31,791 bases of DNA from a virus. The DNA lies in UHGV virus genome UHGV-1970909; one strand, 5' to 3'. Shown here in pieces: positions 5,638 through 31,600 of this stretch. A program made the position numbers and the translations under genes. Position 1 is the first letter of the stretch. The number at the start of each line of letters is the position of its first letter. Below the pieces are notes generated by a model. The model did not search any database and was not told where the DNA came from. It saw nothing but the letters and a program-made list of their open reading frames with translations.

Positions 5638-6831
5638 TTAGCTGTTGACCGAATCCGACAGGTTCGCCAGATAGGTATCGGTGATGCGCTGGCGCAGGGT
5701 CAGGTTTTCCAGCGGCGGGACGGGGGTGTAGTCGTAATCGATATACAGTTTCCCCACTTTCAGGGTCGCGGTGTCGTTCGACTCCGGGTCGTACCAGCAC
5801 AAGCCGTCAACGATATAACCACTGGTTTTCAGCTCGCGGAATTTGGCATTGATACCGGAAACGATGTCACGAATGAGGGTCGGGGTAATGGGTTTATCCA
5901 TCGCCCACGCGTGCGCCTCCGCCATCGTGTCGGCCAGCACCTGCGCGGTGCGGGTGTAGTTCTCAAACAGAAAAAGCGGATCATCCGAGCAGGTACGGTT
6001 TCCCCAGAATTTGAAACCATCATTGCGGATAAGCGTGGTGACACCGGCCTGATTCAGCAGGTTGGCGTCGGTCGCCGGTTCCTGCAAATCCCACGACACC
6101 GAGGCGCTGACGCCGGTCACACCGTTAACACCGACGTTTGACAGGGTTTTATGCCAGCCGACCGTCTGGTCGATTTTGGCACGCAGGCCGAGTGCGCGCG
6201 CCGTCGCCCAGGCTGTTGCTGTCGCGTTCGCCGTGGTGTCCCATGCCAGAAAATCAGGGAAGATGACCATCAGCTCGCGCTGGCTGAAATTCTCGCGGTA
6301 GTTGATGGCATCGGAAATGGTTTTACAGCCCCACGCGCTGATATAGCCAAAGGCGCGCAGGCTCTGACAGGTGGACGCGAGCGCGGTCGCCACTTCCTGC
6401 GAATCCAGCCCCGGCACGCCGAGAATCCGTGGCTTAACGCCGGTGACGGTTTTCGCCGTCAGCAGGGCTTTCAGCCCGGTATATTTGCCGTTTTCGTCGG
6501 TGGTGCCGATGATATTGGAAATGGTTTGTTTGTGCGCCGCCTCGGGGTTCTCCGGGTCTTCAATACCTTCGGCCACACGCACGGCCACGATGACCGGCTT
6601 GCACTGGTCAGCGATAGCCTGCAGGGACGTCGACAGCGTGCCCTGTTTACCGGCTTTACCGATAGCGCTCTGCACGTTCGTAATGAGCACCGGCTCATTG
6701 AGGGGAAATGTTTTTTCGTCAGCATCGCTGGCCGTACAGACCATGCCGATGATGGCCGTTGAAACGGTGGAAATGGTGCGGACGCCATCGTTAATCTCGA
6801 TGACCTGCACGCCGTGATGATAGTCACTCAT
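5638..6831 (-). CDS. FI: Contractile tail sheath protein gpFI, 397 aa
   Basis: Start placed at MSDYHHGVQVIEIN (residue 67 of the six-frame ORF), which resembles the P2 FI N-terminus as I recall it; the upstream 66 codons of the ORF are a spurious 5' extension. Confidence 0.92.
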   Translation of the reverse strand: MSDYHHGVQVIEINDGVRTISTVSTAIIGMVCTASDADEKTFPLNEPVLITNVQSAIGKAGKQGTLSTSLQAIADQCKPVIVAVRVAEGIEDPENPEAAHKQTISNIIGTTDENGKYTGLKALLTAKTVTGVKPRILGVPGLDSQEVATALASTCQSLRAFGYISAWGCKTISDAINYRENFSQRELMVIFPDFLAWDTTANATATAWATARALGLRAKIDQTVGWHKTLSNVGVNGVTGVSASVSWDLQEPATDANLLNQAGVTTLIRNDGFKFWGNRTCSDDPLFLFENYTRTAQVLADTMAEAHAWAMDKPITPTLIRDIVSGINAKFRELKTSGYIVDGLCWYDPESNDTATLKVGKLYIDYDYTPVPPLENLTLRQRITDTYLANLSDSVNS

Positions 6832-7057
6832 CCGTTTAACTCCGTGGTTAAGGGGTGAGTGATATTTTCTGTTGTGTGGCAGGTGCGGGCTATTTGTCAG
6901 GGTTGGATAAGGTCTGACACAACAGCGGTGAATATTCGGGCTGTCACGATATTTGTCAGTTAATTTGGGTAATTTTATGTAATCATATGTTGTGAAAGCG
7001 CATCGGGATGATGCAAAAACATAATGCAATACAGATGATTACTGTTCAGGGCTGGTC

Positions 7058-7642
7058 ATGTTTAAGTACGTTTTAGCACTAAATTTTATTTTTTTTGGCA
7101 ATACACACAACCTGATGAATTACTGGAAAGCGGAGGTTATCAGAAGAGAGAAATTTTCACTGCACCGTCTTTTAAGAGAGAAAAAACACCGGGGCAGAAA
7201 TTTTATTTTTTGGTGGCGCCTGGCAAATGAAATGTATTTGAATGGTGGGAAAATACACAAAAAAGCAGCAAAGCAAATCAATGCTCACCTGATGGAAAAA
7301 TTTGGCTGCGAAATATCACTTGGTGCAAATATTGGCAAAGGAATAAAAATTCCACATCATCATGGAATTGTCATTCATCATTTGGTAGACATAGGTGAAA
7401 ACTTAGTCATACGCCAAAACACAACAATCGGTCAAAAAGACAGCGATGGTAAATCCTTCAAATTGCACATTGGGGATAATGTTGATATTGGTGCAAACAC
7501 ATGTATTGTTGGCCTGAATCATACAATTGGAAATAATGTGAAAATTGGAGCGATGTCATTCGTTAACTGTGACATCCCGGATGATTGTACGCTTGTTACG
7601 ACTAAAACGACCCGATTCATTAGCCATAACAACATATCATAA
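7058..7642 (+). CDS. Cargo gene: left-handed beta-helix (hexapeptide-repeat) acetyl/acyltransferase, CysE/WcaB-like, 194 aa
   Basis: Translation contains tandem hexapeptide repeats (IGANIGKGIKIP..., IGENLVIRQNTTIGQKD, IGDNVDIGANTCIVGLNHTIGNNVKIGAMSFV); AT-rich; opposite strand to flanking tail genes; sits at the P2 Z/fun position between G and FI. Exact start uncertain. Confidence 0.7.
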   Translation: MFKYVLALNFIFFGNTHNLMNYWKAEVIRREKFSLHRLLREKKHRGRNFIFWWRLANEMYLNGGKIHKKAAKQINAHLMEKFGCEISLGANIGKGIKIPHHHGIVIHHLVDIGENLVIRQNTTIGQKDSDGKSFKLHIGDNVDIGANTCIVGLNHTIGNNVKIGAMSFVNCDIPDDCTLVTTKTTRFISHNNIS

Positions 7643-7652
7643 CGTTGGTGTC

Positions 7653-7688
7653 ATAAAGGGTAGCCTAATTATTATGACTACCCTTTAT
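7653..7688. terminator. Bidirectional hairpin terminator between the convergent acetyltransferase and G genes
   Basis: 11-bp perfect stem ATAAAGGGTAG (7653-7663) / CTACCCTTTAT (7678-7688), lying between the stop codons at 7640-7642 (+) and 7696-7698 (-). Confidence 0.55.
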
Positions 7689-7695
7689 GCGAGTG

Positions 7696-8271
7696 TTAAA
7701 TTTTATCCGGCCAGATAATGTCTGGTGCCTCGTCAGGAACAACCCGGTTTAGTAGTACCCTGTATTGTTTCCATGCCTTTAATTGCGAGATTTCACTCTC
7801 TGTTGCCATGTCAAAATCGACAGCGTCCTGTAAAGTCGCAATATTCTCGTTTGCATTTTTTAAAAGTGTATTTTTTAAATTCTTCGCATCCTCAATCTGT
7901 GCATTTTGCTTTGCAACCGCATCATCAACCCATACTTTACCATTCCATTTTTGCCACTGATTTTCAGGTGCAGCGGTTGTCGTCCCTGCCGGATATTTAC
8001 CCGGTTCGGTTATCTCCACCTGGTGACCTGTTTCAGTGTCATAGACAACCTCACCCCGATGGTCTTCAGTGGTATTCCAGCGCCCGTTTTCAGTGTCGTA
8101 AACGGGAATACATCCCGCGCTGGTTTCTGGCGGTTTTTCACTGGTACAACAGGCAGGAAGTCCGGTAAATGGTGGGATCAGTGCGTCACCTTTTTCAATA
8201 AATTCACAGGTATCTGCGCGATAGTTATAAACGGTAATTGTCCGGCTTTTCCCGGTCATTTTGAAAGTCAT
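7696..8271 (-). CDS. G: Tail fibre assembly chaperone gpG, 191 aa
   Basis: Immediately downstream of and 1-nt overlapping the tail fibre gene H; size and position as P2 G. Confidence 0.85.
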   Translation of the reverse strand: MTFKMTGKSRTITVYNYRADTCEFIEKGDALIPPFTGLPACCTSEKPPETSAGCIPVYDTENGRWNTTEDHRGEVVYDTETGHQVEITEPGKYPAGTTTAAPENQWQKWNGKVWVDDAVAKQNAQIEDAKNLKNTLLKNANENIATLQDAVDFDMATESEISQLKAWKQYRVLLNRVVPDEAPDIIWPDKI

Positions 8272-9965
8272 CAGGCAAGCCTCACGATATAGTTGAATGC
8301 GATGTTTTTGACGGTGTTTTCAGCGTTACCGGCTGCATTAACAGTGATGTTATGTCCGTGAGCCCCTATTGCCACAGTATGACTGTGTGCACCAATACCG
8401 ACATTATGGTTGTGGGCTCCGATGGCTACGGTATGGGCGTGAGCTCCGGCAGAACCTGTTGCCGTGGACGTATATTGAGTTGCCAGGCGTCCGGATGTTA
8501 GCGGCACTTTTCCGCCCTGGTTAGCACCATCTGACGTGGGTATCGGATGCGTGTGCGCCCCTGTGTTATTGGTGGTTTTCGTCCCGTAATCAAAGGTCGT
8601 GGTGGTTTTCGTTCCGTGGTCAAAAGCACTGGTGGTTTTCGTCCCTAAATCGGTGCTCGATGCGCTGGCACCGTGGGCGTGCGATTTAATCCCATCCTGC
8701 TCCTGAGACAAAATTGCGCGCCCACTTGCGGGTTTACCTTTGATTGTCCAGCCCCGCATATCAGGAATAACTCCCGACGGATACACCACAGCAAGCAGCG
8801 GATACGCGGCTTTATCAAAAGTTTGTCCCTGCATGACGGCATAGCCAGCGGGAACACTGTCAGACGGCCACGCAACGGGAGCGCCTACCGGAAAAACATC
8901 ATCAGGCGTCCACGGTGTCCATGCGCCTGTTGAATACTGGCTGCGCGAGTAGCTCCGGGAGCTGTTATAAACCCGGTATACCTGAGTCACTCCGGCATTT
9001 TTATAAATGACCAGCGTCCCGGCGTTATTTTCAGGGTAATGTCTGGCGGCTGAGGTATTGGCGTTCGCTGGCTGAAAGTAAATACCCGGCGTTTTAAGGG
9101 TGTCTAAATCCTCCGTTACCAGCCCAATAGCCTGACCGTCGAAAATATCCTTCGAGGTGACACTGGTGTCAGCATTCAGGGAATGTCCGTTAATTTTACG
9201 CGTGGAGGGAACGCGGCCATTAGCATTATCATTCGCCACTTTGACCGCTTTCGGTGTCGCAGCAAGCACCTCAGACACGCTGTCGGTGGCGCTACTGAGC
9301 TGGACAATCCCCTTCTGTGCCGTGGTCGCGTCCTGAGCCGTATATTTACCTTTCGCAAGGTCATACGCCACCTTGACCGCTTTCGGCGTTGCGGCGAGCG
9401 CCTCAGACGTGCTGTCGGTCGCACTGCTTAACTGCGTGAACCCTTTTTCTTTCAGCGTGGCGTCAGGATGGCGACGGGACTGCTCATGCTCTGCGAGTTT
9501 ATCGTCGACATAATCCTGCGTCGCCATCACCAGTGTCGTATCGATGGACAGCTCGACGGTGTCGATATCGCTCACCATGATCACCATGCGCAGCGTCTGT
9601 GCGCGGCCTGACCCTTCCGCCAGTTCGGGCTTATAACTTTCGGCCATATTGCCGACCGCAATCAGCGTGCCGGTGTCATCGTAAAGCCCCATTTCACGCA
9701 GCCAGAAACCGCCGGTCTCCGGGGGGATCACCAGCTCCGCCACGACATAATTTTTATGTTTTTTGTCCAGGCTGATTTTGTTCAGCGCATGGCGCCAGAC
9801 CTCATTGACGAGTTTTGTCTGACTGGCGTCTGGTTCGGGCAGCTTACCGCCACCGTCCCCGACGGCCATCACCGCAAAATTGACTTTTTTCCCGTTCGGG
9901 AGCGTCGCCGCCGCCAGTTTTTCCGCACCGGCTCGGGTGATAACGGTTTTATATTTCACTGTCAT
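8271..9965 (-). CDS. H: Tail fibre protein gpH, 564 aa, with internal repeats and a His-rich C-terminal tip
   Basis: N-terminus [40 protein letters not shown] is typical of P2-family H; duplicated [22 protein letters not shown] segment; C-terminal HGTKTT and GAHxH repeats. Confidence 0.9.
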
Positions 9966-12833: not shown

Positions 12834-13820
12834 TTATGGATTTGACTTACCTGAAGTCTCTTTTTTTATTTCAAATTTCCCACCCTTGAACATGATATTC
12901 GAATCTTTGATTCCATACAAAAGCATTTCATAAGGATGGTTAATTTTTTGTTCTTTTGTAGCGATACTGGAATTCATCAATTGCAACAAAGCCACATGAT
13001 GTTCACTCGCCCCTAACTCTACCATTTTGGTAGCCATGTTGCTTATCTGTTCTCGTTTTAAAAAATCTTCCCGGAGAGAAAGTAACGTTAAACTTCGTGC
13101 GTTACAAAACTTTATCATGTAAACAACAAACGCACCTAACCCAATATAGGAAAACGATAATGCTAAATAAATAGACGGTGTGGTTATTATGTTTTGCCCA
13201 AATATAAGAAAACCCAGCAGGCCAAAAAAATAAAAAACATTCACCAAAATAAACATGTTACTCATCAGAGCCTTTGTACTTCGAGTTGCATCATATTCTT
13301 TCTCCAGATGCTCCAAAAATGATGATATTTTTATTAAATTTAACTTTTCAATTGTTTCCTTCTCTAAAATCTTGAATTGCTCACTCTCTCTAATTAATTT
13401 TTTGGTAGTGTCCTCCACTGTATCATGCAATGATTCAGTGATCGCCTCTTCAATTTTATTTTCAGAAAACACGCTTGTTAAAGCGTAATTGGCTAATTCC
13501 TTTTGTCTTTTCTCGATTAAACTTTCGACATTTTCTCTGTACGCATCAAAATATTTTTGACCACTCTCGTTTAGCAATATTTTACGAATATGAAATTTTA
13601 TTTTCTCATCTGCCATTGGTTGGCTTTCAGTGTTACCATTCTTCTTTGTGTTATTATCTTTAGTTTCCGCATTATACCTGTCCTTGCCTGAATCAAGTAA
13701 GTTCCGTGAAATGAATTTCACCACAGGACCACGCAGAATAGCTATAGCTATTGCCATTGCAAGAATGAATGGTGAAGCATCAATAAATGATCGCGCAAAT
13801 ACGAAAGAGATTTCACTCAT
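12834..13820 (-). CDS. Cargo gene: predicted integral membrane protein with coiled-coil region (about 329 aa), function unknown
   Basis: AT-rich ORF in the gap between V and S (P2 orf30 position). Hydrophobic helices at FILAMAIAIAIL and FILVNVFYFFGLLGFLIFG...IYLALSFSYIGLGAFVVYMI, with a long charged K/E-rich middle. Start chosen at MSEISF (ATG with GGGAA 6 nt upstream); the six-frame ORF begins at an upstream TTG. Confidence 0.7.
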   Translation of the reverse strand: MSEISFVFARSFIDASPFILAMAIAIAILRGPVVKFISRNLLDSGKDRYNAETKDNNTKKNGNTESQPMADEKIKFHIRKILLNESGQKYFDAYRENVESLIEKRQKELANYALTSVFSENKIEEAITESLHDTVEDTTKKLIRESEQFKILEKETIEKLNLIKISSFLEHLEKEYDATRSTKALMSNMFILVNVFYFFGLLGFLIFGQNIITTPSIYLALSFSYIGLGAFVVYMIKFCNARSLTLLSLREDFLKREQISNMATKMVELGASEHHVALLQLMNSSIATKEQKINHPYEMLLYGIKDSNIMFKGGKFEIKKETSGKSNP

Positions 13821-14133
13821 AAACATTTCCCTATCTAAAATCAAAGAGTTTACTTTTACCCATATTTTCTACTGACTGAACCAGTTTGACAAGAGAGATA
13901 AGCATCTTTAATATCGATTTTGCCCATTAGGCATGAAAATAAAAAATACCACATGAAATCAATATCATACAATGACCACGCGTTGACCTCATCCATAACC
14001 AATAAATTATCTGATCATGAAATTCTTGATATGCATTGCAGAATTCGATTTCCACCATTTCGCTTTTAGATGTTCATCAAATATCAACACCCCACTATCA
14101 GTAGTTGACAGATCAACTCGTAGCTAATTCAAA

Positions 14134-23194: not shown

Positions 23195-24460
23195 ATGAAT
23201 ATAATGAAATGTTTTGAATGCGAAACCTGTGGTACACACATTGATTGTAGAATAGGACTTTCAAATCGAGATGTGCAGCCTTTTCAGTTTGCTTGTCCTG
23301 AATGTGAAGAAAAAATTACTTTTAATATTTTGGGTGAAGACTTCAACCTAGAAGGGGCCATTGATCTTGTTGATTTTGAGGCACCATTTACGGGGGGTAA
23401 TCATTTCATAGATTTACACTTGGATTTTCCCGCCTCATTTGAAAAATATGAAATGGGATTTACTCCATTCATGCGAGCTGCTCAGGAAATCGGTCATGAG
23501 AACTATCAGCATCTTAATGAGAGACTGAATGCTCTTAACTACTTATACCCTAAAAAGAGAGAGTTAAGACGCTTAATAACTCAGTATAAACGAGGCGAAG
23601 TAAATACATTTCGAAAAACCTGCAATAAGCTTCTTGGTATACAATTAAAATCTAATAAGAAACAAGATATATTAGCCGCTTTGTATACAGCAACATCCAT
23701 AATGTCTTCACCTTTTACCATACATCAACATAATGAAGAAATAAGCACTAAAATGCCTGATTTATTACGTTCGCTTGATTACACTCACAAAATAAAAACA
23801 AGGGCGTTTTTTGAACAGTTAATTAAAACTGGTTTCTTACGAAATGTACACCATGAATGCCTATCCTTGTACCCAAAAATCGTAGAATTAGACCTACCAT
23901 TAAGGCCAGCCCTTTATTTTGACTACAAGCAATTAAATGAAGGGGATAAAATTTCAGGGCGGGTTTCAACTGCTGACTTTGATAGTTGCAGTAATTTATA
24001 TAAGGATCTATCTGAAGTCTTTTCGCGATTATTAACATTAGTTGCGGGGCTTAATAATCTGCTAAAACGTGGAGATTATGATCTGTTTGATGATTCAGTT
24101 CGTTTAAATAAAAAACAAGAATTAATTAAAGAACTTGCATCTTTAAATAATTTTACCAATATGGATTTAGGTAAAAAAATAGAGTGTATTGATGATTCAT
24201 TTTATTACATCGACAAGAGTGCAATTAATCACAAGTTACGAAATGCAATTGCCCATTATAAATATGAGTACGAAGAATCTACACAAATGATTTTCTATTA
24301 CCCAAATAGAGAAGGAATGAGCAGAGAGAACATGTATGAAATTTCATTTCTTGAATTTCTTAGATATTCTTTGATGCTTTTTCGTGAGGTTCATTCATTG
24401 AATCACATTGTTAAATCATTGTTTTTTTACACTGTGCTTGTTTTAAAGAAGGACATTTAA
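23195..24460 (+). CDS. Cargo gene: N-terminal zinc-ribbon + C-terminal HEPN-like (R-x4-H) domain protein, 421 aa; candidate abortive-infection RNase
   Basis: AT-rich ORF with a strong AAGGAG Shine-Dalgarno; N-terminus CFECETCGTH...ACPECEEK (C-x2-C...C-x2-C); C-terminal motif HKLRNAIAHYKYEY (R349-N-x3-H354, nt 24239-24256); sits between cos and A, where P2 carries tin/old. Confidence 0.75.
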   Translation: MNIMKCFECETCGTHIDCRIGLSNRDVQPFQFACPECEEKITFNILGEDFNLEGAIDLVDFEAPFTGGNHFIDLHLDFPASFEKYEMGFTPFMRAAQEIGHENYQHLNERLNALNYLYPKKRELRRLITQYKRGEVNTFRKTCNKLLGIQLKSNKKQDILAALYTATSIMSSPFTIHQHNEEISTKMPDLLRSLDYTHKIKTRAFFEQLIKTGFLRNVHHECLSLYPKIVELDLPLRPALYFDYKQLNEGDKISGRVSTADFDSCSNLYKDLSEVFSRLLTLVAGLNNLLKRGDYDLFDDSVRLNKKQELIKELASLNNFTNMDLGKKIECIDDSFYYIDKSAINHKLRNAIAHYKYEYEESTQMIFYYPNREGMSRENMYEISFLEFLRYSLMLFREVHSLNHIVKSLFFYTVLVLKKDI

Positions 24461-30595: not shown

Positions 30596-31600
30596 ATGCC
30601 TACCAATCGTACTAGATACTCATTTTTAAGCCCAATGAGTATCAGTGATAGCGTCAGTGTTTTTTTTGCAGCCCTTGATTTTTTTTCAATCCCTGGACAG
30701 GACAAGGTTAGGAAAACTATAGCTATACCTCAAACCAATAATGGTATTCATCCTCTTCCTGCTGGTTCTTTCATGGATTATATTAAGGCGTTAAATATTT
30801 TGGCTGAGCCTGATCGCCACATGCAAAATATACGAAAGCTACTTAACAAAATGGAAGGTGTAGGTTTGTTAGTACCTATGGGGAACTCTGGGAGTGTATT
30901 TTTCCCAACCAATTATTACTTCTTGAAAGAATTAACTGAGAGAGAAAAGAAAGGTCGATTCTGGTTGTCTGAATGCTTGGGGCCTGAGTATGTGTACAAG
31001 TTTTTTGGTAATTTAATCATACATATCGTAGGCATGACATCAGATGGAGATGAACATGGAGGCACTGGAGTTATTATTAATGATAAACTGGTTTTGACAT
31101 GCAAGCATGTAATCGATGAAATGGTTATCAATGATACTCAATTTATTAATGGTAGTCAGATCAAAGTAGTCAACACGCATACACATAATGAAATTGATGT
31201 TGGAATTATTGAGTTCGAACCAAATAGCTTTATTGTAAATGGGAATGTGTGTTTTGATTCTCCGCACTTAAATGATGATATATATGTTTTAGGCTATCCA
31301 CCAATTCCATATTCAAAAGAAGTTGCGCCAATAATGCAGAAAGGTGAGATTACTAACCCTGAAATTACTACATTGGATAATCATACGGTTTTTCTTTTCT
31401 CTGCTATAGCTAGACCTGGTAATAGTGGAGGTCCAATTATTGCTAGGAATGGCAGGATCCTTGGGATAGTCACGAAAGAGCTATCACTTCAAGAAAGCAA
31501 TAACTTCCCGTTCTTTGCGGGGATTCCAACAAATGAAATAGTAACAGCCCTCTCTGATATGGGGTTTGGAGGGATACTTCCTGTCGAAAATTATCAGTAG
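30596..31600 (+). CDS. Cargo gene: two-domain protein with C-terminal trypsin/chymotrypsin-like serine protease (H171, D201, S277 in GNSGGP) and an unrecognised N-terminal domain, 334 aa
   Basis: AT-rich ORF with a perfect AAGGAG Shine-Dalgarno; motifs TCKHVI, EIDVGIIEF and ARPGNSGGPII in H-D-S order; no signal peptide evident; sits between int and the right integrase arm repeats. Confidence 0.75.
   Translation: MPTNRTRYSFLSPMSISDSVSVFFAALDFFSIPGQDKVRKTIAIPQTNNGIHPLPAGSFMDYIKALNILAEPDRHMQNIRKLLNKMEGVGLLVPMGNSGSVFFPTNYYFLKELTEREKKGRFWLSECLGPEYVYKFFGNLIIHIVGMTSDGDEHGGTGVIINDKLVLTCKHVIDEMVINDTQFINGSQIKVVNTHTHNEIDVGIIEFEPNSFIVNGNVCFDSPHLNDDIYVLGYPPIPYSKEVAPIMQKGEITNPEITTLDNHTVFLFSAIARPGNSGGPIIARNGRILGIVTKELSLQESNNFPFFAGIPTNEIVTALSDMGFGGILPVENYQ

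What the first reader, a model, noticed from the sequence alone, without database searches (positions are those of the whole stretch)
7058..7642. Hexapeptide-repeat acetyltransferase on the opposite strand at the Z/fun slot
A left-handed-beta-helix acyltransferase (CysE/WcaB-like repeats) is inserted between G and FI, the position of P2 Z/fun, with its own bidirectional terminator hairpin. It is AT-rich and is the only plus-strand gene in the whole tail region. Candidate roles are lysogenic conversion (acetylation of a surface polysaccharide, altering the phage receptor) or a small-molecule or protein-modifying defence function.
Basis: partly seen in the sequence, partly recalled or inferred. 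Interest (0 to 1): 0.5.

Follow-up and report, generated by a model that had tools for sequence, protein, structure and literature searches.

The report
Prophage sugar acetyltransferase beside tail-fibre genes
A small acetyl-transferring enzyme gene sits at the end of the tail-fibre genes of a P2-like E. coli prophage; databases call it a cysteine-pathway enzyme, but it most likely decorates a cell-surface sugar, an ordinary but untested kind of prophage cargo.

Summary
ORF 7058-7642 (+, 194 aa) is intact, about 37% GC against 55-60% around it, and is the only plus-strand gene in the tail region. It lies between tail-fibre assembly gene G and sheath gene FI of a P2-like E. coli prophage, and a hairpin follows it.

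The protein is a left-handed beta-helix acetyltransferase with serine-acetyltransferase architecture (AF2 pLDDT 93.9). It keeps the catalytic His and acid. It lacks three serine-binding residues that all 7 cysS-linked relatives keep, so the database name "serine acetyltransferase" is wrong.

Relatives without that signature sit among glycosyltransferases. The nearest non-phage relatives sit in Pseudomonas LPS-core clusters.

In phages the gene is almost always at the end of the fibre module:
- 12 of 18 dereplicated clusters are convergent with Tfa, and 4 more lie at a fibre-module end.
- A 1.8-kb fibre-tip + Tfa + acetyltransferase block is shared at 93% identity between P1-like and P2-like phages.

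Best reading, with confidence about 0.55: it O-acetylates an envelope glycan, probably LPS, giving lysogenic conversion or receptor masking. Substrate, expression and phenotype are untested.

A T8 tract in codons 11-13 occurs as T7 or T9 (out of frame) in other isolates.

This is a new member of a known kind, of moderate interest.

The parts
5638..6831 (-). Tail sheath gene FI, the left boundary of the slot. The true start is ATG 6831, giving 397 aa.
   Evidence: Pfam Phage_sheath_1, Phage_sheath_1C and Gp18_domIII_N. Called as 397 aa in identical contigs.
6832..7057 (.). Divergent intergenic region between FI and the acetyltransferase. It holds a 16-nt block, TTTATGTAATCATATG (6973-6988), that stays conserved where the flanks have diverged. 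No promoter was identified on the + strand.
   Evidence: Alignment with L005, L006 and L010. The consensus scan found no + strand sigma-70 site here.
7047..7051 (+). Shine-Dalgarno-like CAGGG, 6 nt before the ATG.
   Evidence: Read from the sequence. TCAGGGyTGGTCATG is conserved in L005, L006 and L010.
7058..7642 (+). LbH acetyltransferase ORF of 194 aa. Residues 1-82 form a helical N-domain containing the WWRLANEMY motif. The beta-helix starts at about residue 84. The catalytic residues are E85 and H100.
   Evidence: (phrog_2154, 1e-67).
7089..7096 (+). T8 homopolymer in codons 11-13. T7 and T9 variants in other E. coli assemblies break the reading frame.
7652..7689 (.). Inverted repeat with a 12-14 bp stem between the two convergent stop codons. 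It looks like a bidirectional terminator.
   Evidence: Folds. Not called by the scan. The structure, but not the sequence, recurs in L005, L011, L012, L013 and L065.
7696..8271 (-). Tail-fibre assembly gene G (Tfa), convergent with the acetyltransferase. It is AT-rich like the acetyltransferase and belongs to the same mobile block.
   Evidence: Pfam Caudo_TAP at 1.9e-34. GC 0.40-0.46. Cassette comparison.
8271..8880 (-). The 3' part of tail-fibre gene H (whole gene 8271-9965), encoding the C-terminal receptor-binding tip that travels with Tfa and the acetyltransferase.
   Evidence: The C-terminal 150 aa are 65-87% identical across P2-like, P1-like and phiNP loci whose fibre N-termini are unrelated. 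The 93% shared block ends about 610 nt into the fibre gene.

Best explanation
The ORF encodes a soluble, acetyl-CoA-dependent O-acetyltransferase. It is presumably trimeric, as LbH enzymes are. It belongs to an uncharacterised, phage-associated clade (phrog_2154) that descends from the serine-acetyltransferase/WcaB/EpsC branch of the left-handed beta-helix superfamily but is not a serine acetyltransferase.

It is carried as a moron at the 3' end of the tail-fibre module, as part of a fibre-tip + Tfa + acetyltransferase block that recombines between phage backbones.

Most likely it O-acetylates a sugar of an envelope glycan at the cytoplasmic face of the inner membrane. Candidates are lipid A-core or an undecaprenyl-linked O-unit, ECA or colanic-acid intermediate. 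That would change the surface presented to phages and to the animal host, which is lysogenic conversion, superinfection exclusion or protection of progeny from debris.

Shown here:
- The gene, the fold and the catalytic dyad.
- The loss of the serine-binding residues.
- The synteny and the cassette transfer.
- The gene neighbourhoods of chromosomal relatives.

Inferred:
- The acceptor substrate.
- Expression from its own promoter in the lysogen.
- The phenotype.
For: 1. Fold and chemistry.
- The AF2 model has pLDDT 93.9.
- Foldseek hits serine acetyltransferases with probability 1.0.
- H100 is invariant in 113 of 113 relatives.
- The acid at CysE position D143 is always D or E.

2. It is not a serine acetyltransferase.
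- CysE D157, R192 and H193 correspond to P99, F134 and K135 in the window, and these columns vary across the family.
- As an internal control, all 7 cysS-adjacent homologues and 17 others carry xDHRH.
- None of the 78 Tfa-linked loci carries it.
- The profile alignment stops at CysE residue 235 of 273, so the C-terminal tail is absent.
- All NCBIfam equivalog scores are far below their cutoffs.

3. Glycan context of signature-negative relatives.
- Among 94 flanking ORFs of 50 loci there are 21 GT1/GT4, 10 GT2, 4 Wzy_C and 3 NeuB proteins, plus UDP-sugar dehydrogenases.
- All 7 CysS neighbours fall in the signature-positive set.

4. Nearest full-length non-phage relatives.
- P. mendocina P0093 (54% identity) overlaps a GT2 gene by 4 nt.
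- That cluster holds four Kdo/WaaP-family kinases, a carbamoyltransferase and an MsbA-like ABC transporter.
- Related Pseudomonadaceae and Leminorella loci have GT2, Kdo-kinase, NeuB or O-antigen-ligase-family neighbours.

5. Phage synteny.
- Of the 18 dereplicated (90% identity) phage clusters that have enough flanking sequence to judge (21 clusters in all), 12 are convergent with and adjacent to Tfa or the fibre gene.
- One more has one or two genes between; the gene next to the acetyltransferase is HtrL_YibB, an LPS-related family.
- Three more sit directly after fibre or RBP genes: L075-79, L176 and S. thermophilus 987-group phages.

6. Cassette.
- P1-like L012 and P2-like L013 share 93% nt identity over exactly the acetyltransferase, the spacer, Tfa and the last 610 nt or so of the fibre gene.

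7. Moron hallmarks: AT-rich, opposite strand, own hairpin.

8. Precedent in the same slot.
- NeaT, an AT3-family acyltransferase, is AT-rich, opposite in orientation, and has envelope and virulence phenotypes (PMC3573123).
- Prophage acetyltransferases are GWAS predictors of Klebsiella K-loci (PMC13123978).
Against: - No substrate, expression or phenotype data exist for any member. Papers that mention it call its role unknown (PMC9603915).
- No convincing sigma-70 promoter was found upstream.
- In the common E. coli variant the gene lies co-directionally after the late genes FI-U, so it may be expressed late rather than in lysogeny.
- The end of the fibre operon is a generic moron site. The same Tfa type occurs without the acetyltransferase in about 4,100 more E. 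coli genomes. The linkage could therefore be hitch-hiking rather than function.
- Several enterobacterial chromosomal copies are orphan island genes with no glycan genes nearby.
- O-acetylation of the E. coli LPS core is not a classical modification (my own knowledge).
- About 12% of contigs carrying this allele are frameshifted. That fits either switching or decay.
Confidence: 0.55

Rival explanations
1. It is a genuine serine O-acetyltransferase, an auxiliary metabolic gene that boosts cysteine synthesis, as every database name says.
For: The best PDB, NCBIfam and Foldseek matches are serine acetyltransferases. The catalytic His and acid are conserved.
Against: - Serine/cysteine-binding D157, R192 and H193 are absent. 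All cysS-linked homologues keep them.
- The CysE score is 72 bits against a cutoff of 210.65.
- There is no C-terminal CysK-binding tail, and about 57 residues of the N-domain are missing.
- The context is never cysteine metabolism.
Confidence: 0.03
2. It is an anti-phage or counter-defence enzyme that acetylates a non-glycan target, such as a small molecule, nucleotide or protein, in line with P2 hotspots being reservoirs of defence genes.
For: The P2 variable slots carry defence systems (PMC9122126; bioRxiv 2024.10.15.618418). P2 Z/fun in this slot excludes T5 (my own knowledge). The gene stands alone and is AT-rich.
Against: - PADLOC gives no hit at E<=1.
- The two hotspot papers searched for the term (PMC9122126, PMC13586616) do not mention an acetyltransferase.
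- Relatives sit in glycan clusters, not defence islands.
- The linkage is to fibre genes in many phage types, not to the P2 slot as such.
Confidence: 0.17
3. It acts late in infection on the phage's own machinery, for example by acetylating the fibre, Tfa or another virion component, rather than on the host envelope.
For: It is always next to the fibre and Tfa genes. In the E. coli inverted-block variant and in S. thermophilus phages it is co-directional with late structural genes.
Against: - In the window and most loci it is antisense to the late operon and separated from it by a hairpin.
- Most phages with the same Tfa and tip type lack it, so it is not needed for assembly.
- Its relatives sit in glycan-synthesis contexts, which points to a sugar acceptor.
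Confidence: 0.07
4. It is a hitch-hiking passenger with no current benefit. It sits at a permissive operon end, is dragged along by frequent tail-fibre recombination, and is decaying in part of the population.
For: T7 and T9 frameshift alleles exist. The Tfa type is about ten times more common without it. No promoter was found.
Against: - The catalytic and structural residues are conserved at 41-75% identity across many genera.
- Family-level matches occur in 784 of 5,426 complete E. coli genomes.
- The position is retained in Gram-positive phages.
- All of this argues for purifying selection.
Confidence: 0.1

Closest known systems
Serine O-acetyltransferase CysE (EC 2.3.1.30; e.g. E. coli 1t3d, N. 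gonorrhoeae 6wye/7ra4)
   Same: - The architecture matches: a helical N-domain followed by a left-handed beta-helix.
- The catalytic His158 and acid at position 143 are kept.
- CysE proteins give the best sequence and structure matches.
   Different: - It lacks substrate-binding D157, R192 and H193.
- It lacks about 57 N-terminal residues and the C-terminal regulatory/CysK-binding tail.
- Scores are far below the equivalog cutoff.
- There is no cysteine-pathway context.
WcaB (colanic acid) and EpsC, CysE-like acetyltransferases of polysaccharide clusters
   Same: They belong to the same LbH sub-branch. EpsC is the best NCBIfam hit and WcaB aligns over residues 82-184. Signature-negative relatives likewise sit among glycosyltransferases.
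   Different: The scores are 83.5 against a cutoff of 150 for EpsC and 64.5 against 196 for WcaB, so it is not an equivalog. It is phage-borne, single and not in a wca or eps cluster. It has a distinct conserved N-domain motif, WWRLANEMY.
NeuO, the polysialic-acid O-acetyltransferase of prophage CUS-3 in E. coli K1 (PMC3046976)
   Same: It is a prophage-encoded LbH O-acetyltransferase that modifies a surface glycan. It is phase-variable through a repeat tract in the 5' coding region (for phase variability; the tract detail is my own knowledge). The window gene has a T7/T8/T9 polymorphic tract in codons 11-13.
   Different: NeuO belongs to the NodL/LacA/maltose-acetyltransferase branch and uses heptanucleotide repeats (my own knowledge). 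This protein is on the CysE/WcaB branch (its LacA hit is only 1.2e-5). Switching at its homopolymer is unproven.
NeaT of P2-like prophage phi-b0847 in E. coli CFT073 (PMC3573123)
   Same: It occupies the same G/FI moron slot, in the opposite orientation to the tail genes, and is strongly AT-rich. It is a single acyltransferase gene with envelope-related and virulence phenotypes.
   Different: NeaT is a membrane Acyl_transf_3 (PF01757) protein and is unrelated in fold. It is a positional and functional analogue, not a homologue.
P2 Z/fun
   Same: It occupies the same slot between G and FI in phage P2, is non-essential cargo, and affects other phages (and my own knowledge).
   Different: There is no sequence relationship, and fun is not an acetyltransferase. 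Z/fun itself was not compared directly.
Oac (Sf6), OafA and GtrC, the O-antigen acetylases of serotype-converting phages
   Same: They carry out phage-borne O-acetylation of LPS, causing seroconversion and superinfection exclusion.
   Different: They are integral-membrane AT3 enzymes that act at the periplasmic side (my own knowledge). This protein is soluble, has an LbH fold, and would have to act on cytoplasmic-face intermediates.

Membership tests
Left-handed beta-helix (hexapeptide) acyltransferase superfamily | LbH fold built from hexapeptide repeats | tested here: met
   AF2 pLDDT 93.9, with short strands of regular spacing from residue 84. Foldseek hits LbH enzymes with probability 1.0. 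Pfam Hexapep is only 22.7 bits against a GA of 27.
Left-handed beta-helix (hexapeptide) acyltransferase superfamily | Catalytic general-base His, as in the CysE/WcaB branch | tested here: met
   H100 aligns with CysE H158 and is invariant in 113 of 113 relatives. E85 aligns with D143, which is D or E in all of them.
Serine O-acetyltransferase (CysE) | Serine/cysteine-binding residues D157, R192 and H193 (E. coli numbering). D92 could not be aligned. | tested here: not met
   The window has P99, F134 and K135, and these columns vary in the family. In the control, cysS-adjacent homologues all carry xDHRH, while 0 of 78 Tfa-linked loci do.
Serine O-acetyltransferase (CysE) | Score above the curated equivalog cutoff (TIGR01172, 210.65 bits) | tested here: not met
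   72.4 bits.
Serine O-acetyltransferase (CysE) | C-terminal tail that binds CysK and mediates feedback inhibition | tested here: not met
   The family profile ends at CysE residue 235 of 273. The protein ends about 10 residues after the helix.
Serine O-acetyltransferase (CysE) | Serine-dependent acetyl-CoA turnover | not testable with these tools
   An enzyme assay is needed.
WcaB colanic-acid acetyltransferase | Equivalog score (cutoffs 196 and 194.65) and location in the wca cluster | tested here: not met
   64.5 and 62.2 bits. The gene lies in a prophage tail region.
EpsC (NF041874) | Equivalog score of at least 150 | tested here: not met
   83.5 bits.
phrog_2154 (phage protein family of unknown function) | Near full-length profile match | tested here: met
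   E 1.1e-67, residues 14-188 matched to profile positions 4-179 of 185.
Known anti-phage defence systems (PADLOC-DB v2) | Match to any defence-protein model | tested here: not met
   No family at E<=1.
Phage lysogenic-conversion glycan O-acetyltransferases (functional class; NeuO, Oac) | Prophage-borne, non-essential, AT-rich gene with its own transcription signals | tested here: inconclusive
   It is prophage-borne, AT-rich, on the opposite strand and followed by a hairpin. No promoter was identified.
Phage lysogenic-conversion glycan O-acetyltransferases (functional class; NeuO, Oac) | Acetylation of a surface glycan that alters serotype or phage adsorption | not testable with these tools
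   Only indirect evidence exists: the glycan-cluster context of relatives and the linkage to fibre genes.

The most novel reading that the evidence does not exclude
The acetyltransferase is the third working part of a mobile receptor cassette made of fibre tip, Tfa chaperone and receptor-masking enzyme. It would acetylate the very LPS or glycan epitope that the linked fibre tip recognises. Any phage that acquires the tip would then also acquire self-exclusion and protection of its progeny from debris. In this allele the enzyme would be switched ON and OFF by slippage of the T8 tract in codons 11-13.
Probability: 0.2. Interest if true: 0.65.

Novelty: new member of a known kind. Interest (0 to 1): 0.4.

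Why it matters
- **Prevalence and annotation.** Family-level matches occur in about 14% of complete E. coli genomes, including O157:H7 and O111, and in P1-like phage-plasmids. Everywhere it is annotated as a cysteine-biosynthesis enzyme.
- **Corrected reading.** The active-site and context tests show that the label is wrong. They point instead to envelope-glycan acetylation.
- **If confirmed.** Tail-fibre swapping between phages would also spread a surface-modifying enzyme. That would affect serotyping, phage-therapy host-range prediction and possibly virulence, as happened with NeaT in the same slot.
- **In the field's terms.** It would add a soluble, cytoplasmic-face enzyme class to phage seroconversion, which is currently dominated by membrane AT3 acetylases and Gtr glucosyltransferases. 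It would still be a familiar type of cargo rather than a new principle.

Tried and rejected
- **Nucleotide searches.** Megablast of 6830-7700 against INPHARED phages and 5,426 complete E. coli genomes matched only the FI end. This allele is rare, and relatives appear only in protein or "distant" mode.
- **Defence models.** PADLOC gave nothing.
- **Promoter and terminator scan.** It found no + strand promoter upstream and no canonical terminator. Manual reading of 6832-7057 gave no convincing -35/-10 pair.
- **Tandem repeats.** Tandem Repeats Finder found nothing in 6800-7800, so there are no NeuO-like heptad repeats.
- **Longer relatives.** P0031 and P0034 (269 and 278 aa) were checked for informative fusions. 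Their extra N-termini look like over-extended start calls.
- **Literature.**
  - The P2/P4 hotspot papers (PMC9122126, PMC13586616) do not mention this gene.
  - Searches on CP-933T, the S. thermophilus 987 group, and moron plus tail fibre found only annotations.
- **Antibiotic or xenobiotic acetyltransferase.** Rejected, because no CatB/Vat model appears among the 22 NCBIfam hits.
- **Strict tie to one fibre-tip type.** Rejected. L011, L080/82 and L086 carry the gene next to unrelated tips.
- **Orphan chromosomal copies.** The copies in Citrobacter, Pantoea and Cronobacter, and the one carried by P0070 in a JGI metagenome assembly, gave no functional hint.
Full report
**What is there**

The window is a P2-like (Peduoviridae) prophage. 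Its closest phage record is Enterobacter phage ENT4, at 84.7% nt identity over 68% of the first 25 kb of the window. It carries the standard genes D, U, T, E, FII, FI, G, H, I, J, W, V, S and R on the minus strand, then P, Q, A, the CII-like regulator, the CI-like repressor and the integrase.

The exact protein and its Tfa neighbour are annotated in many E. coli assemblies under consecutive accession numbers, and also in Citrobacter enshiensis. The host is therefore E. coli.

The finding's coordinates match an intact ORF of 194 aa, from ATG 7058 to the stop at 7642 on the + strand. An SD-like CAGGG lies 6 nt upstream. The ORF sits between sheath gene FI (5638-6831, -) and tail-fibre assembly gene G (7696-8271, -), which is the P2 Z/fun slot. 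GC is 0.37-0.40 over 7001-8000 against 0.55-0.60 on either side. The AT-rich stretch includes gene G. No other real gene of the tail region is on the + strand.

Between the two convergent stop codons, a 12-14 bp inverted repeat (7652-7689) folds at -19.3 and -20.9 kcal/mol, with z-scores of -3.4 and -6.2. Its long loop and short U-tracts keep it below the terminator scan's rule.

**What the protein is**

Sequence models place it on the CysE/WcaB/EpsC branch of the hexapeptide acyltransferases, but far below every curated cutoff. EpsC scores 83.5 against 150, CysE 72.4 against 210.65, and WcaB 64.5 against 196. Pfam Hexapep scores 22.7 against 27.

It matches phrog_2154, a phage family of unknown function, almost end to end at 1e-67. 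It matches no PADLOC defence model.

An AF2 model built from 32 homologues is confident (pLDDT 93.9). It shows five N-terminal helices followed by a beta-helix. Its best PDB matches are all serine acetyltransferases.

**Is it a serine acetyltransferase?**

I aligned the family to E. coli CysE. I recalled that sequence from memory and checked the recall: D92, D143, D157, H158, R192 and H193 all fall on the expected letters.

- The catalytic His is invariant (window H100; 113 of 113 relatives), and the partner acid is always D or E (window E85).
- The substrate-binding D157, R192 and H193 are P99, F134 and K135 in the window, and these columns vary across the family.
- The profile alignment also ends at CysE residue 235 of 273, so the regulatory C-terminal tail is missing.

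An internal control makes this test credible. Among homologues fetched from genomes, all 7 that lie next to cysS, and 17 others, carry the full xDHRH signature. None of the 78 loci that also hold a Tfa gene does. The database name "serine acetyltransferase" is therefore not supported.

**What the non-SAT relatives do**

I pooled the ORFs immediately flanking the homologues in the genome loci and scanned them against Pfam.

- All the glycosyltransferase neighbours fall in the signature-negative set of 50 loci and 94 ORFs. They comprise 21 GT1/GT4, 10 GT2, 4 Wzy_C and 3 NeuB proteins, plus UDP-sugar dehydrogenases and polysaccharide flippases.
- All 7 CysS neighbours fall in the signature-positive set.

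The nearest full-length non-phage relative is P. mendocina P0093, at 54% identity.

- Its gene overlaps a GT2 gene by 4 nt.
- The cluster around it holds four Kdo/WaaP-family kinases, a carbamoyltransferase, an MsbA-like ABC transporter and Mig-14.
- From my own knowledge, this layout corresponds to the Pseudomonas LPS-core locus.
- Related loci have GT2, Kdo-kinase, NeuB or O-antigen-ligase-family neighbours.

Some enterobacterial chromosomal copies are orphan island genes and tell us nothing.

**Synteny in phages**

Protein-level relatives occur in these phages:

- P2-like phages.
- P1-like phage-plasmids (JL22, Ro157c2YLVW).
- Citrobacter phiNP.
- Hafnia yong2.
- Phage 613R2.
- S. thermophilus 987-group phages, at 30% identity.

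I surveyed 93 phage-context loci with profile HMMs for the acetyltransferase, Tfa, fibre and sheath proteins. After dereplication at 90% identity there are 21 clusters, of which 18 have enough flanking sequence to judge.

- 12 clusters are convergent with, and directly adjacent to, Tfa or the fibre gene. Gaps run from -36 to +54 nt.
- 1 cluster (L008/9) has one or two genes between; the gene next to the acetyltransferase is HtrL_YibB, an LPS-related family.
- 3 clusters that my HMMs scored as "none" are in fact at a fibre-module end. L075-79 follow the fibre gene, Tfa and a 151-aa ORF. Buttiauxella L176 is convergent with a phage_tail_N fibre gene. The S. thermophilus gene follows the RBP genes and precedes the holin.
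- Only L074 and L084 show no fibre genes nearby.

The commonest E. coli version sits in a P2-like prophage whose FI-FII-E-T-U block is inverted. There the gene lies between U and G, so it stays with G and not with FI. O157:H7 carries this version.

**A mobile block**

P1-like L012 and P2-like L013 share 93% nt identity over exactly 6009-7806. That span is the acetyltransferase from its first codons, the 44-nt spacer, Tfa and the last 610 nt or so of the fibre gene. Apart from two short, weak fibre-gene matches (71% and 79% identity), they share nothing else.

Across backbones whose fibre N-termini are unrelated, the C-terminal 150 residues of the fibre remain 65-87% identical to the window's, and Tfa remains 47-62% identical. 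The spacer hairpin recurs with different sequences.

The tie is not to a single tip type. L011, L080/82 and L086 carry other tips.

The association also runs one way. The Tfa half of the cassette is found in 4,636 of 5,426 complete E. coli genomes, while the acetyltransferase-plus-Tfa block is found in 528. Family-level matches to the window gene occur in 784 genomes, in 522 chromosomal and 351 plasmid places.

**Mechanism**

The best-supported reading is a soluble acetyl-CoA-dependent O-acetyltransferase acting on a sugar of an envelope glycan at the cytoplasmic face. LPS core, or an undecaprenyl-linked intermediate, is the most attractive acceptor for two reasons:

- The closest non-phage relatives sit in LPS clusters.
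- P2/P1/Mu-type fibres bind LPS core (my own knowledge).

The consequence would be lysogenic conversion, exclusion of phages using that receptor, or protection of progeny from debris.

The steps that are shown are the fold, the catalytic dyad, the loss of the serine site, the neighbourhoods and the cassette. The acceptor, the timing of expression and the phenotype are inferred.

Several points count against this reading:

- No promoter was found.
- The gene is co-directional with late genes in the common E. coli variant.
- The operon end is a generic moron site.
- No member has been tested experimentally. The JL22 paper states that the role is unknown.

**Comparison with known systems**

- The closest homologues, CysE, WcaB and EpsC, each fail membership tests.
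- The closest functional analogues are NeuO of prophage CUS-3, an LbH enzyme that acetylates capsule and is phase-variable (PMC3046976), and the AT3-family acetylases Oac, OafA and GtrC.
- The closest positional analogue is NeaT. It is an AT3 acyltransferase in the same G/FI slot of a P2-like prophage, opposite in orientation and AT-rich, with virulence and aggregation phenotypes (PMC3573123).
- A 2026 study found prophage acetyltransferases among the strongest predictors of Klebsiella K-loci and proposed prophage-driven sugar modification (PMC13123978).

**Side observation**

Codons 11-13 contain a T8 tract (7089-7096). Near-identical alleles in other E. coli assemblies have T7 (L188, and metagenome contig L010) or T9 (L189, L190). 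The T7 and T9 alleles share the same flanking SNPs and differ only in tract length, and both break the frame.

In the 90% cluster, roughly 17 of about 140 contigs carry truncated annotations. Other alleles of the family have no such tract. This could be ON/OFF switching or simply a decay hotspot.

**Verdict**

The gene is a new, mis-annotated member of a known kind of prophage cargo. Its interest is moderate, and rests mainly on the fibre-cassette linkage and the possible switch.

Noticed in passing
window 7089-7096: A T8 homopolymer lies in codons 11-13 of the acetyltransferase. Near-identical alleles elsewhere carry T7 (L188, L010) or T9 (L189, L190), both out of frame. It may be a slipped-strand ON/OFF switch or a decay hotspot.
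   Followed up: partly
window 23195-24460 (+): A 421-aa ORF with 29-36% GC lies between portal gene Q and replication gene A, which is the P2 old/tin defence hotspot. It has no Pfam or PADLOC match and is a candidate for unknown defence cargo.
   Followed up: partly
window 12834-13844 (-): A 336-aa ORF with 34-38% GC lies between baseplate spike gene V and tail-completion gene S. It has no Pfam or PADLOC match. This is a third AT-rich island, in the P2 orf30 position.
   Followed up: partly
window 30596-31600 (+): An AT-rich (35-37% GC) trypsin-like peptidase gene lies just after the integrase. It has weak PADLOC matches to the protease domains of RT-protease, LmuA and HamA models. It is either cargo at the attachment-site end or flanking host DNA.
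   Followed up: no
window 6973-6988: The 16-nt block TTTATGTAATCATATG, 70-85 nt upstream of the acetyltransferase start, is conserved in L005, L006 and L010 although the surrounding intergenic sequence has diverged. It may be a regulatory site. No sigma-70 match was found.
   Followed up: partly
L008 3074-5958 and L009: In a Salmonella-like prophage with PipA upstream, the 73%-identical acetyltransferase is convergent with an HtrL_YibB (PF09612, LPS-related) gene. A DUF1353 gene and a DUF4376/Caudo_TAP fibre-assembly gene follow.
   Followed up: partly
L177 1008-9195 (E. coli) and L187 (O157:H7): The common E. coli P2-like prophage has its FI-FII-E-T-U block inverted relative to P2. The acetyltransferase therefore lies between U and G and is co-directional with late genes. 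In the O157:H7 copy, an IS3 element follows Tfa and the tape-measure gene is frameshifted.
   Followed up: partly
L174 6001-7299 (Cronobacter malonaticus): Two hexapeptide-repeat genes lie convergently in an island next to rpoD and mug. A Pantoea homologue sits in the same rpoD-mug neighbourhood beside an IS21 element and JetD.
   Followed up: no
L003 (phage JL22) 848-8215: In P1-like phage-plasmids the acetyltransferase lies in the middle of the cin-invertible C segment, between the two alternative fibre-tip and assembly gene sets. Inversion would therefore change whether it is downstream of or antisense to the expressed fibre operon.
   Followed up: no
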